In this document: piece by piece, positions 59,195 to 60,640 of the stretch
Layout: the number at the start of each line of letters is the position of its first letter
How positions within the stretch are numbered: position 1 is the first letter of the stretch
Source: the human T2T-CHM13v2.0 reference genome, Homo sapiens
Length of the DNA stretch: 64,000 bases
Assembly (NCBI GenBank): GCA_009914755.4
Contig: CP068257.2
Span: 6,304,001 to 6,368,000, forward strand
Direction: 5' to 3'
Notes under the pieces: generated by a model
The model's database searches: none
Told to the model about the DNA's origin: nothing
The model's input: only the letters and a program-made list of their open reading frames with translations
Program-made: the position numbers and the translations under genes

Positions 59195-59450
59195 GAATTA
59201 TTAGAGGCAGAAACAAATTGAAAGGTTGTACACCTACACCTGTTGTTTGAAAAACACAACTTACCAAAGCCAAACAGAAGAAGTATGTAAACTCTTATGT
59301 CTAGTAATAGGCAAAATGCGTAATTTAAAACTTTCCCACAAAAACAATTCCCAGTTCCTGATGGCTTCACTGGTGAATTCTTCAATGAAAGGGAAAAGTA
59401 ACACCAACACTACAGAATTACTTTTTTAATTTCAGGGACAGATTTTTTTT
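59195..59450 (+). repeat. Left arm of an approximately 250-bp-arm inverted repeat (palindrome) whose right arm is 60270-60490; spacer about 820 bp
   Basis: The reverse complement of 59196-59430 (ccagaattattagaggcagaaacaaattgaaaggttgtacacc...cttcaatgaaagggaaaagtaacaccaacactacag) aligns to 60275-60490 (ctgtaatgttggtgttattttttccctttcattgaag...tttgtttctgcttataataattgtgggatc). Confidence 0.8.
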
Positions 59451-59575
59451 TTTTAAATCTTAGTGACAGAGTCTCACTATGTTGCCCAGGCTGGAGTGCA
59501 GTGGCTTTTGACAGTCAAGTTCCAGTGATCCTCCCACCTCAGCCTCTGGAGTAGCTGGGACTACAGGTTACAGAA
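59441..59575 (-). mobile_element. Alu fragment (minus strand, about 135 bp)
   Basis: tagtgacagagtctcactatgttgcccaggctggagtgcagtggcttttgacagtcaagttccagtgatcctcccacctcagcctctggagtagctgggactacagg. Confidence 0.8.
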
Positions 59576-59583
59576 ACTTTTAT

Positions 59584-59871
59584 TTTTGGGACAGAGTCTC
59601 GCTCTGTCACCCAGGTTGGAGTGCAGTGGCGCAGTCTCGGCTCACTGCAAACTCCGCCTCCTGGGTTCACGCCATTCTGTCTCAGCCTCCTTGGTAGCTG
59701 GGACTACAGGCACCCACCACCACACCTGCCTAAATTTTTTTTGTTGTATTTTTAGCAGACACGGGGTTTCACCATATTAGCCAGGATGGTCTCGATCTCC
59801 TGACCTCGTGATCTGCCCGCCTCGGCCTCCCAAAGTGCTGGGATTACAGGCGTGAGCCACCGTGCCTGGCC
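59584..59871 (-). mobile_element. Alu (minus strand, full length) in the palindrome spacer
   Basis: tttttgggacagagtctcgctctgtcacccaggttggagtgcagtggcgcagtctcggctcactgcaaactccgcctcctgggttcacgcc...cccaaagtgctgggattacaggcgtgagccaccgtgcctggcc. Confidence 0.9.
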
Positions 59872-60040
59872 AGAAATTTTAAGAGAACAAAAATAAAGGG
59901 AACAGAGCCATGCTCATTTTTTGAGATTACAATAAACTTGATATCAAAAGTAGTCTAAAAAATTACAAAAAGTAAAACTACAGGCTAATCAGTCACATGA
60001 ACACAAGCCCAAAAGTCATTTTTAAAAACAGCACACTAAG

Positions 60041-60268
60041 CAGGGCACAGTGGTTCATGCCTGTAATCCCAGCACTTTGGGAGGCCGAGGTGGGAGAAGT
60101 GCTTAAGCTCAGGAGTTCCCTTTATTTTTGTTCTCTTAAAAGTTTCTGTAGCCTGTAGTCCCAGCTACTCAAGAGGCTGAAGTGGGAGGATAACTGGAAC
60201 GTGACTGTGAATAGCCACTGCACTCCAGCCTGGGCAACATAGTGAGATCTGTCCCTAAGATTTAAAAA
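60041..60268 (+). mobile_element. Alu split into a 5' part (60041-60119) and a 3' part (60154-60268) by a 35-bp inverted copy of flanking sequence (60120-60153)
   Basis: The 5' part is cagggcacagtggttcatgcctgtaatcccagcactttgggaggccgaggtgggagaagtgcttaagctcaggagttc. The inserted 35 bp, cctttatttttgttctcttaaaagtttctgtagcc, is the reverse complement of 59873-59912. The 3' part is tgtagtcccagctactcaagaggctgaagtgggagg...ccactgcactccagcctgggcaacatagtgagatctgtccctaagatttaaaaaaaa. Confidence 0.7.
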
Positions 60269-60269
60269 A

Positions 60270-60640
60270 AATCTGTAATGTTGGTGTTATTTTTTCCCTT
60301 TCATTGAAGAATTCACCAGTGATGCCATCAGGAACTGGGGATTGTTTTTGTGAGGAAGTTTTAAATTATGGACTCTATTTATTTCATAATTATAGGAGTA
60401 TACATACTTCTTATGTTTGGTTTTGGTAAGTTGTGTTTTTCAAACAGTAGGTATACAACCTTTTAATTTGTTTCTGCTTATAATAATTGTGGGATCTTTT
60501 ATTTAAAAAATGATTGATTTTCATGAATAGAAGATAGGTTTTACTAATACTACACTCAATGTTAATTCCTTGCAGTTCAAGGACACTGAGGCCCCGTCTA
60601 ATAATACAGAAGAAAAACTAGGATAGTGGCAAGACTAGCC
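60270..60640 (-). repeat. Right (inverted) arm of the palindrome. It extends further into an inverted third copy of segment X
   Basis: The reverse complement of 60490-60600 (cttgccactatcctagtttttcttctgtattattagacggggcctcagtgtccttgaactgcaaggaattaacattgagtgtag...) aligns to 44740-44880 and 59075-59200. Confidence 0.75.

What the first reader, a model, noticed from the sequence alone, without database searches (positions are those of the whole stretch)
59195..60640. Palindrome with about 250-370 bp arms around an Alu-filled 820-bp spacer, plus a nested 35-bp inverted patch splitting an Alu
59195-59450 and 60270-60490 are reverse complements of each other. The right arm continues to about 60640 as an inverted third copy of segment X (it aligns to 44740-44880 and 59075-59200). 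The spacer contains an Alu fragment, a full minus-strand Alu, and an Alu whose two halves (60041-60119 and 60154-60268) are separated by a 35-bp sequence (60120-60153) that is the exact reverse complement of spacer sequence at 59873-59912. Short inverted patches of this kind are typical of template switching during replication, as in fork-stalling or MMBIR-type events. Together with the A/B duplications this makes 57.6-60.7 kb a small hotspot of inverted-repeat-mediated rearrangement. Palindromes of this arm and spacer size can form hairpins or cruciforms and are prone to deletion or inversion.
Basis: seen in the sequence. Interest (0 to 1): 0.55.

Follow-up and report, generated by a model that had tools for sequence, protein, structure and literature searches.

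The report
Ancient fold-back duplication inside an Alu
About 0.5 kb of old repeat-derived primate DNA was copied backwards into a neighbouring Alu element tens of millions of years ago, leaving a decayed and apparently stable inverted repeat: a tidy example of a known mutation process, not a new or fragile structure.

Summary
Once a later AluY and its duplicated target site (59583-59881) are removed, 59065-59903 aligns without a break to the reverse complement of 60115-60624. That alignment has 547 columns, and 87.5% of aligned bases match. The "Alu fragment in the spacer" belongs to both arms. The "35-bp patch" is the inner end of the right arm, seen across the AluY. It is not a template-switch patch. 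The two "Alu halves" are not one Alu. The right arm sits exactly inside an old full-length Alu (60040-60118 plus 60631-60838), with no target-site duplication or poly-A. It shares 4 bp (GTTC) with that Alu at the inner junction. It is therefore the derived copy, and fold-back or template-switch synthesis primed 211 nt upstream explains it best. The non-Alu parts are L1 ORF2 debris (aa 437-545) plus an unidentified segment. A 5.8-kb contig from another primate, 2.9% diverged, carries the whole structure in the same order, so it is not an assembly artefact and is at least roughly 10 Myr old. Arm identity steps from 81% (outer) to 95% (inner), which suggests a later arm-to-arm gene conversion. 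I found no sign of function or present fragility.

The parts
59065..59582 (+). Left (original) arm, contiguous part. It comprises segment X, L1 ORF2 debris, a 5'-truncated Alu and 15 nt of L1.
   Evidence: Inverted alignment to 60624-60137. It is collinear with L1 ORF2p.
59882..59903 (+). Inner end of the left arm, separated from the rest by the later AluY.
   Evidence: 22 of 22 bases match the reverse complement of 60115-60136. The alignment is contiguous once 59583-59881 is removed.
59030..59236 (+). Segment X (P1), of unidentified origin. From 59065 onwards it forms the outer part of the left arm.
   Evidence: About 80% identical to 44695-44905 and to the reverse complement of 60448-60624. 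No significant match to L1 ORF2.
59246..59417 (+). Old L1 ORF2-derived sequence, about aa 434-489.
   Evidence: tblastn E = 0.002. PDB phmmer hit to LINE-1 ORF2p residues 437-545, E = 6e-10.
59443..59567 (-). 5'-truncated old Alu (consensus positions about 157-282 plus a T-tract at 59443-59454). It inserted into the L1 before the duplication. TSDs are at 59411-59425 and 59569-59581.
   Evidence: Alignment to Alu consensus. TSDs read from the sequence. Present in both arms and in the copy at 58878-58941.
59583..59871 (-). Full-length AluY-like element inserted into the left arm after the duplication. TSDs are AGAAACTTTTA (59572-59582) and AGAAATTTTA (59872-59881).
   Evidence: Best match is AluY positions 1-282, with 4.4% non-CpG divergence. 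The right arm keeps the empty site. Present in L001.
59904..60039 (+). Single-copy spacer, part 1: continuation of the same L1 ORF2 fragment, about aa 505-545.
60040..60118 (+). Host Alu, 5' part (consensus positions 2-80). 60040-60114 forms spacer part 2. 60115-60118 (GTTC) is shared with the right arm as 4-bp microhomology.
   Evidence: The junction was read.
60115..60624 (-). Right (derived) arm: an inverted copy of 59065-59903 made before the AluY arrived. It carries a 30-bp deletion relative to 59418-59447.
   Evidence: It interrupts the host Alu.
60625..60630 (.). AGTGGC at the outer junction. It is either filler or diverged arm sequence.
   Evidence: It matches neither the continuation of the left arm (59059-59064) nor the Alu consensus. 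It is identical in L001.
60631..60880 (+). Host Alu, 3' part (consensus positions 81-289) with its A-rich tail.
   Evidence: Joining 60040-60118 to 60629/60631-60838 rebuilds one full-length Alu, AluJo scoring best.
58878..59026 (+). C1: an older partial direct copy of the truncated-Alu/L1 junction.
   Evidence: 86-87% identical to 59520-59580 plus 59871-59956, and 83.5% to the right arm. It lacks the roughly 21-bp Alu deletion that both arms share.
44695..44916 (+). X44: the third copy of segment X. It starts at the same nucleotide (CACAGAGAG) as the copy at 59030.
57626..58877 (-). Copy B of a younger inverted duplication of 44903-46152. It includes an AluSx, and its right end abuts C1.
   Evidence: 1257 columns, 93.3% identity. 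Present in L001.

Best explanation
This is a neutral relic of one ancient inverted templated insertion.

**Starting state.** An old L1 ORF2 fragment already carried a 5'-truncated Alu. A full-length old Alu, most like AluJ, lay about 140 bp downstream.

**The event (inferred).**
1. A break or stalled fork occurred in that downstream Alu between consensus positions 80 and 81.
2. The 3' end, ...GAGTTC, paired with GAAC at 59900-59903 on the same strand or the sister strand, 211 nt upstream.
3. DNA synthesis copied about 540 nt backwards, down to about 59065.
4. The new strand was rejoined to the other side of the break. 5-6 nt at that junction are unexplained, and no Alu bases were lost.

**The result.** The layout is arm, then a 211-bp single-copy spacer, then the inverted arm. 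In the four-point template-switch model this is a '3-2-1-4' event.

**Later changes.**
- The inner roughly 240 bp of the arms were re-homogenised, probably by arm-to-arm gene conversion.
- An AluY inserted into the left arm at the same TTTT/AA site the older Alu had used.
- Both arms decayed by point mutations and small indels.

The structure has no detectable function.

**Shown:** the anatomy, the polarity (which arm is the copy), the order of the Alu insertions, and conservation in a second lineage.
**Inferred:** the break, the fold-back priming, and the gene conversion.
For: - **Continuous arms.** With 59583-59881 removed, the arms align as 547 columns: 440 matches, 63 mismatches and 44 gap columns. 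blastn gives E = 2e-136.
- **The right arm is the insertion.** Deleting 60119-60630 restores one Alu covering consensus positions 2-289. The right arm therefore entered a pre-existing Alu. It has no TSD and no A-tail.
- **Microhomology.** GTTC at 60115-60118 belongs both to the Alu (positions 77-80) and to the arm (reverse complement of GAAC at 59900-59903). The chance of 4 or more shared bases is about 1.6%. Human fold-back inverted duplications show 2-8 bp of such microhomology and always a single-copy spacer (PMC3907307).
- **The left arm is the original.** Together with the spacer it is collinear with L1 ORF2p residues 437-545, E = 6e-10.
- **The duplication followed the older Alu insertion.** Both arms share the truncated Alu, the Alu/L1 junction on its right side, and an internal Alu deletion of about 21 bp.
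- **The AluY came later.** It has TSDs in the left arm only, and the right arm keeps the intact empty site.
- **A second lineage has it all.** L001 covers window 56654-62479 at 2.9% substitution divergence. It carries every element and both junctions in the same order.
- **Identity step.** The change point is near 59337. Mismatches are 51 of 266 outside it and 12 of 237 inside it, permutation p < 0.0005. Orthologous divergence is the same in both halves, so this is not rate heterogeneity.
- **Outgroup copies point to a late inner coalescence.** The three copies of X are star-like, with 11, 11 and 17 unique sites. The inner copies give 21, 4 and 5. The inner halves therefore coalesced later than the outer halves.
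- **Divergence ranking fits the order of events**. The host Alu shows about 11% non-CpG divergence, and the outer arms about 9.6% per lineage. The AluY shows 4.4%, and the inner arms about 2.5% per lineage.
Against: - No allele or species with the intact host Alu (the empty site) was available, so the insertion is inferred from anatomy alone.
- The outer junction carries 5-6 nt (AGTGGC) of unknown origin.
- Sequence cannot tell DSB fold-back apart from replicative template switching. It also cannot say which break end primed synthesis.
- Fold-back templated insertions shown experimentally at yeast breaks are mostly 5-34 bp (PMC11724301). A copy of about 540 bp with a 211-nt loop is much larger.
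- Gene conversion of the inner half is not directly shown. There are no concerted sites since the two lineages split.
The recalled ORF2p was supported by about 80% amino-acid identity to the window's L1PA element, and the ORF2 assignment of the arm was confirmed independently against solved structures.
- Segment X, the outer third of each arm, could not be identified.
Confidence: 0.75

Rival explanations
1. A palindrome with 250-370-bp arms surrounds an 820-bp Alu-filled spacer. Within it, a separate short template-switch event placed a 35-bp inverted patch in the middle of one Alu.
For: 60115-60148 is indeed the reverse complement of 59871-59903. Alu sequence does lie on both sides of it.
Against: - The patch is contiguous with the rest of the right arm once the AluY and one TSD copy are removed.
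- The Alu piece to its right (60153-60271) has an orthologous partner in the left arm (59443-59567), joined to the same L1 bases. A third copy of this junction is at 58878-58960.
- The Alu piece to its left continues at 60631-60838, not at 60154.
Confidence: 0.03
2. The product is the same, but it arose by replicative template switching (FoSTeS/MMBIR). It may have been one complex event that also produced the direct copies X44 (44695-44916) and C1 (58878-59026), rather than fold-back repair of a two-ended break.
For: - The three copies of segment X are equidistant, with a star-like 11, 11 and 17 unique sites.
- Microhomology at the junction fits either mechanism.
- A second inverted templated copy lies 1.2 kb away.
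- The four-point template-switch model predicts exactly this '3-2-1-4' product (PMC5453318).
Against: - The return to the exact next base of the host Alu, with no loss, is what a two-ended break would give. However, it is also what a switch-and-return would give.
- Near-simultaneity rests on about 40 informative sites.
- X44 lies 14 kb away, and its link to C1 is unproven.
Confidence: 0.2
3. The inverted duplication is young, at the inner-arm level of about 5% pairwise. On this view the outer halves look older because one of them was later overwritten by gene conversion from another diverged paralogue.
For: There is a step in identity at about 59337. Paralogues of the outer part exist.
Against: - Neither arm's outer half is close to the only visible donor, X44. 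The differences are L-X44 22 of 167 and R-X44 28 of 167.
- An unseen donor would therefore be needed.
- The duplication must still predate the AluY, which shows 4.4% non-CpG divergence.
Confidence: 0.08
4. The arms are two independent L1 insertions in opposite orientation, or an L1 5' inversion produced by twin priming.
For: Both arms contain L1 ORF2-derived sequence from the same region.
Against: - The arms share a secondary Alu insertion at the same L1 site on its right-hand junction, plus a shared internal Alu deletion.
- Both arms cover the same ORF2 interval, whereas twin priming joins adjacent, non-overlapping intervals (established knowledge of that mechanism).
- The right arm lies inside an Alu and has no TSD or A-tail.
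Confidence: 0.01
5. The structure is an assembly artefact, or it is a functional hairpin-RNA locus kept by selection.
For: As single-stranded DNA the arms pair, with an MFE of -479.7 kcal/mol for 1491 nt.
Against: - An independent assembly from a lineage 2.9% diverged has the same structure.
- The arms differ by 12-20% and by an AluY, which artefacts do not produce.
- Orthologous divergence within the arms (2.1-3.7%) is not below the regional 2.9%. There are no compensatory or concerted changes.
- There is no Rfam match.
Confidence: 0.03

Closest known systems
Fold-back inverted duplications in human constitutional rearrangements (Hermetz et al. 2014, PMC3907307)
   Same: The layout is the same: original segment, single-copy spacer, inverted copy. 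Short inverted microhomology sits at the boundary between spacer and inverted copy (2-8 bp there, 4 bp here). The inferred intermediate is intrastrand pairing of a resected 3' end.
   Different: - Those events span kilobases to megabases, with spacers of 766 bp to 70 kb.
- They pass through a dicentric chromosome and end in terminal deletions, translocations or rings.
- Here the copy is about 0.5 kb with a 211-bp spacer. Synthesis returned to the other side of the same break, so nothing was lost.
Local fold-back templated inverted insertions at double-strand breaks (Yu et al. 2024, PMC11724301)
   Same: An inverted copy of sequence next to the break is inserted at the break. It is primed through microhomology, and the second end is captured by end joining. 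Filler at the second junction is compatible with this.
   Different: Those insertions were documented in yeast and are mostly 5-34 bp. This one is in the germline, about 540 bp long with a 211-nt loop, and fixed in primates.
Short template-switch mutations, four-point model, event type '3-2-1-4' (Löytynoja & Goldman 2017, PMC5453318)
   Same: The order of the four switch points is the same: 59065 < 59903 < 60118 < 60119. The outcome is also the same: a new inverted repeat capable of forming a hairpin.
   Different: Those events are described as short local switches producing mutation clusters. This one is about 540 bp, an order of magnitude or more larger by my own recollection of typical sizes, which I did not look up. 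The copied material includes whole repeat fragments.
Closely spaced inverted Alu pairs and cruciform-prone palindromes (yeast assays summarised in PMC10164571)
   Same: It is an inverted repeat that contains Alu sequence. It could anneal if the region became extensively single-stranded.
   Different: The spacer is 211-532 bp, identity is 80-95%, and there are indels. This falls outside the range in which dsDNA cruciform-driven instability is seen in those assays. The structure is conserved and uninverted between two lineages.
Large sex-chromosome palindromes kept identical by arm-to-arm gene conversion (my own knowledge, not checked here)
   Same: The inner halves of the arms share a much more recent ancestor than the outer halves, as a conversion tract would produce.
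   Different: Conversion here was partial and old. There are no concerted sites since the two lineages split. The arms are far shorter and far more diverged.

Membership tests
Fold-back / template-switch inverted templated insertion | An inverted copy lies next to its template on the same chromosome, separated by a single-copy spacer. | tested here: met
   Arms 59065-59903 and 60115-60624 with spacer 59904-60114.
Fold-back / template-switch inverted templated insertion | Short inverted microhomology at the junction between the spacer and the inverted copy. | tested here: met
   GTTC at 60115-60118 is shared by Alu positions 77-80 and the arm. The chance of this is about 1.6%.
Fold-back / template-switch inverted templated insertion | The derived copy can be recognised as an insertion that disrupts pre-existing sequence. 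| tested here: met
   Removing 60119-60630 rebuilds one full-length Alu.
Fold-back / template-switch inverted templated insertion | A pre-event (empty-site) allele exists in an outgroup. | not testable with these tools
   The only ortholog retrieved (L001) already has the insertion. Further scans found nothing.
Retrotransposed (TPRT) insertion | Target-site duplications and a 3' A-tail flank the inserted copy. | tested here: not met
   The host Alu resumes at the next consensus base. There is no A- or T-tract at either end of the right arm.
L1 5' inversion by twin priming | The inverted and direct segments are adjacent, non-overlapping parts of one L1 RNA. | tested here: not met
   The arms cover the same ORF2 interval and share a secondary Alu insertion.
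Cruciform-prone / fragile palindrome | Near-identical arms with a very short spacer (tens of bp or less). | tested here: not met
   87.5% identity over aligned bases, six indels, and a spacer of 211 bp (532 bp counting the AluY). The thresholds come from PMC10164571.
Cruciform-prone / fragile palindrome | Evidence of recurrent deletion or inversion at the locus. | tested here: not met
   L001 is collinear end to end with the window, and the spacer is not inverted. Only two genomes were compared.
Palindrome with arm-to-arm gene conversion | The arms are more alike within a lineage than between lineages (concerted evolution). | tested here: not met
   There are 0 concerted sites against 48 paralogue-fixed differences since the split. 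An older conversion is inferred only from the identity step and from the outgroup copies.

The most novel reading that the evidence does not exclude
The inverted right arm, the direct partial copy C1 (58878-59026) and the distant copy X44 (44695-44916) might all come from one ancient germline multi-template-switch event. The three copies of segment X are equidistant, which fits this. The locus also later acquired a second inverted templated insertion only 1.2 kb away (57626-58877, copied from 44903-46152). On this reading the region has a lasting local tendency to fold-back or template-switch repair, perhaps linked to the nearby (TA)n tract or the 29-kb satellite array. The arm-to-arm conversion would be confined to the loop-proximal half.
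Probability: 0.15. Interest if true: 0.4.

Novelty: new member of a known kind. Interest (0 to 1): 0.22.

Why it matters
It matters mainly as a correction and as a clean worked example.

Nested repeat insertions here act as time stamps. There is an Alu inside the L1, an arm inside an Alu, and an AluY inside an arm. These fix which arm is the copy, the exact junctions, and the order of events for a roughly 0.5-kb germline fold-back or template-switch insertion. That size lies between the tens-of-bp template-switch mutations and the kb-to-Mb clinical fold-back duplications.

It also shows that such an inverted repeat, once diverged and spaced, can persist unchanged across primate lineages. No function and no medical relevance is indicated.

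Tried and rejected
1. **Segment X as L1.** I tested whether segment X (59030-59236) is L1. DNA alignment to the window's own L1PA element scored no better than shuffles. tblastn with ORF2p found nothing upstream of aa 434, either on the raw sequence or on a three-copy consensus. Its origin stays unknown.
2. **Sequence after X44 as L1.** By eye, the sequence after X44 (44918-45275) looked like further L1 ORF2. tblastn gave no support, so I dropped the idea.
3. **A different template for the right arm's outer half.** I tested whether it was copied from X44 rather than from the left arm. It is not closer to X44: 28 differences against X44 and 28 against the left arm.
4. **Rate heterogeneity as the cause of the identity step.** Orthologous divergence is equal in the inner and outer halves, so I rejected this.
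5. **Ongoing gene conversion.** There are no concerted sites since the lineage split.
6. **More independent assemblies.**
   - Exact-product look-ups of four ORFs in the region found nothing.
   - One protein homology search found nothing.
   - Junction scans of genome and viral contigs found nothing.
7. **Known RNA families.** Rfam gave no match in 57000-62000.
8. **A simple inversion to explain the X44/C1 arrangement.** The orientation of X44 does not fit. The deeper history of 44.7-59.0 kb is unresolved.
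Full report
**What is in the sequence**

The window is primate DNA, with Alus throughout. Gapped blastn of 58850-60700 against the window gives one inverted alignment: 59065-59582 against 60624-60137, 525 columns, E = 2e-136. 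It also gives a short inverted match, 59871-59903 against 60148-60115, with 33 of 34 columns matching. These two pieces are separated in the left arm by exactly a full-length minus-strand AluY-like element. The element spans 59583-59871, and its non-CpG divergence from an AluY consensus is 4.4%. It is flanked by target-site duplications: AGAAACTTTTA at 59572-59582 and AGAAATTTTA at 59872-59881.

When 59583-59881 is removed, the left arm aligns without interruption to the reverse complement of 60115-60624. The alignment has 547 columns: 440 matches, 63 mismatches and 44 gap columns in six indels. That is 87.5% identity over aligned bases, and K2P = 0.138. The right arm keeps the empty AluY site (CAGAAACTTTTAAGAGAAC). 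The AluY therefore arrived after the duplication.

Its partner is 60153-60271.
- The "35-bp inverted patch" (60115-60152) is the innermost end of the right arm. It only looks isolated because the AluY separates its template from the rest of the left arm.
- The real single-copy spacer is 59904-60114, 211 bp. With the AluY, 532 bp now separate the contiguous arms.
- Identity in the non-Alu parts is 80% (59065-59236), 88% (59237-59417) and 97% (59568-59903).

**What the arms are made of**

I translated the left arm plus spacer conceptually, with the Alus removed. The translation matches solved LINE-1 ORF2p structures (8sxt, 8uw3, 8c8j) over residues 437-545, E about 6e-10. tblastn with ORF2p gives collinear hits at 59249-59383, 59860-59949 and 59967-60026, and at 60347-60258 in the right arm.

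Into this old L1 a 5'-truncated Alu had inserted. It covers consensus positions about 157-282, is in minus orientation, and has a T-tract at 59443-59454. Its 13-15-bp TSDs lie at 59411-59425 and 59569-59581. Both arms carry this Alu with the same Alu/L1 junction on its right-hand side. The left-hand TSD is largely removed from the right arm by the 30-bp deletion. Both arms also share an internal Alu deletion of about 21 bp that a third copy (58878-58941) lacks. The arms therefore come from a DNA-level duplication of an already composite sequence. They are not two separate L1 insertions, and they are not a twin-priming inversion.

I could not identify it as L1 or as anything else.

**Which arm is the copy**

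- 60040-60118 is Alu consensus positions 2-80. It does not continue at 60154.
- It continues at 60631-60838, which is positions 81-289, followed by an A-rich tail.
- Deleting 60119-60630 rebuilds one full-length old Alu. AluJo scores best, and non-CpG divergence is about 11%.
- The 510-bp right arm is therefore an insertion into a pre-existing Alu.
- The insertion shows no target-site duplication, no loss of Alu bases and no A-tail.
- At the inner junction, GTTC (60115-60118) belongs both to the Alu (positions 77-80) and to the arm (reverse complement of GAAC at 59900-59903). This is 4 bp of microhomology, with a chance of about 1.6%.
- At the outer junction, 5-6 nt (AGTGGC, 60625-60630) match neither partner.

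**Mechanism**

The arrangement is original, then single-copy spacer, then inverted copy, with inverted microhomology at the spacer/inverted boundary. This is the signature described for human fold-back inverted duplications. All 21 sequenced junctions there have a spacer, and 13 have 2-8 bp of inverted microhomology (PMC3907307). It is also the signature of fold-back templated insertions at yeast breaks, where one end is extended by synthesis and the other is captured by end joining (PMC11724301). In the four-point template-switch model the switch points fall in the order 59065 < 59903 < 60118 < 60119. That is the '3-2-1-4' type, which creates an inverted repeat (PMC5453318).

My proposal has three steps:
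1. A break or stalled fork occurred in the host Alu.
2. The ...GTTC 3' end primed on GAAC 211 nt upstream, and about 540 nt were copied.
3. The new strand was rejoined to the other side of the break.

The anatomy is shown. The break, the priming end, and the choice between DSB fold-back and replicative switching are inferred and cannot be separated from sequence alone.

**Independent assembly and stability**

One exact-match scan of metagenome contigs with the inner-junction 26-mer returned contig ERZ781269 NODE_954 (L001, 5834 bp).

- It aligns end to end and in the same order with window 56654-62479. There are 168 substitutions in 5809 aligned bases (2.9%) and 17 indels. It therefore comes from a different primate lineage, or from a very deep haplotype.
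- It contains both arms, the truncated Alus, the AluY with its TSDs, the split host Alu, both junctions, and the neighbouring 1.25-kb duplicated block.
- The structure is therefore not an assembly artefact, and it predates that split.
- The spacer has not been inverted, and nothing has been deleted.
- Divergence within the arms (2.1-3.7%) is no lower than in the surrounding sequence. There is no compensatory or concerted change, and Rfam finds nothing. Nothing suggests a selected hairpin.

As naked single-stranded DNA the arms do pair, with an MFE of -479.7 kcal/mol for 59100-60590. In the dsDNA assays summarised in PMC10164571, however, inverted-repeat-induced recombination falls about 300-fold when the spacer grows from 12 to 100 bp. 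It disappears at about 75% identity. The same paper shows that such repeats can still interact when the region becomes extensively single-stranded.

**An unexpected detail: the identity step**

Mismatches are not spread evenly along the arms. A change-point analysis puts a step at about 59337. Outside it there are 51 mismatches in 266 bases (19%). Inside it there are 12 in 237 (5%). The permutation p is below 0.0005. Orthologous divergence is the same in both halves, so mutation rate does not explain the step.

Other copies serve as outgroups.

| Region | Copies compared | Unique sites | Pattern |
|---|---|---|---|
| Segment X (outer) | X44 / left arm / right arm | 11 / 11 / 17 | star-like |
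| Truncated-Alu/L1 junction (inner) | C1 / left arm / right arm | 21 / 4 / 5 | arms coalesce late |

The simplest reading is an old duplication followed by a later arm-to-arm gene conversion of the loop-proximal half. The outer arms show about 9.6% divergence per lineage, just below the host Alu's roughly 11%. The inner arms show about 2.5% per lineage, which is statistically compatible with a conversion before the AluY insertion at 4.4%. There has been no conversion since the two lineages split: 0 concerted sites against 48 paralogue-fixed differences. On Alu-calibrated divergence I would place the duplication at very roughly 40-60 Myr ago. This is an inference, not a measurement.

**Neighbourhood**

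- 44903-46152 and 58877-57626 form a younger inverted duplication. It has 1257 columns at 93.3% identity, an AluSx in both copies, and an 11.5-kb spacer.
- Copy A of that duplication ends at a (TA)n/(TG)n tract.
- Copy B ends against C1 (58878-59026). C1 is an older partial direct copy of the truncated-Alu/L1 junction and sits immediately upstream of segment X.
- X44 (44695-44916) begins at the same nucleotide as the copy at 59030.

I could not reconstruct the order of these older events. A simple inversion does not fit. A tandem duplication later split by about 13 kb is possible, as is a single multi-switch event.

**Verdict**

This is a real and well-resolved rearrangement of an ordinary kind: an ancient inverted templated insertion into an Alu, followed by partial homogenisation, an AluY insertion and decay. 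Interest is low to moderate. It is a new instance of a known kind.

Noticed in passing
window 1947-21262 and about 23614-30841: A roughly 27-kb array of a 68-69-bp satellite unit (TRF period 69, 76% matches). It is in two blocks with about 2.3 kb of other sequence between them.
   Followed up: partly
window 30837-33912: A young-looking L1 (L1PA-like) ORF2 covering aa 252-1275, about 80% amino-acid identity to human ORF2p. It begins exactly where the satellite array ends. Old L1 ORF2 scraps also lie at 40918-43772, 48096-48308 and 56240-56483.
   Followed up: no
window 44903-46152 and 57626-58877: A second, younger inverted duplication: 1.25-kb arms, 93.3% identity, 11.5-kb spacer, with the same AluSx in both copies. 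One boundary lies at a (TA)n/(TG)n tract (46153-46230). The other abuts the Alu fragment at 58878. The block 57626-58877 is also present in L001.
   Followed up: partly
window 59411-59425, 59569-59582, 59872-59881: Two Alu insertions far apart in time used the same TTTT/AA nick site: the truncated old Alu and the AluY. Their target-site duplications overlap, and the motif ACAGAA(N)ACTTTT now occurs three times.
   Followed up: partly
L001 positions corresponding to window 60151-60181 and 59065-59331: In the other lineage's right arm, five substitutions (four of them transversions) cluster within 31 bp. This could be sequencing error at 8x coverage or a multi-nucleotide event. In the outer left arm, 8 changes are specific to the window and 0 are specific to L001.
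   Followed up: no
window 62425-62581 and 33970-34126: A 157-bp inverted match at 91.7% identity. It is probably two L1 3' ends in opposite orientation.
   Followed up: no
window 59418-59447 against 60271/60272: The right arm lacks 30 bp that are bounded by a short direct repeat (ACAGA) in the left arm. The left arm also carries what looks like a small tandem duplication of the Alu tail (TTTTTTAATTTCAGGGACAGA / TTTTTTAAATCTTAGTGACAGA).
   Followed up: partly
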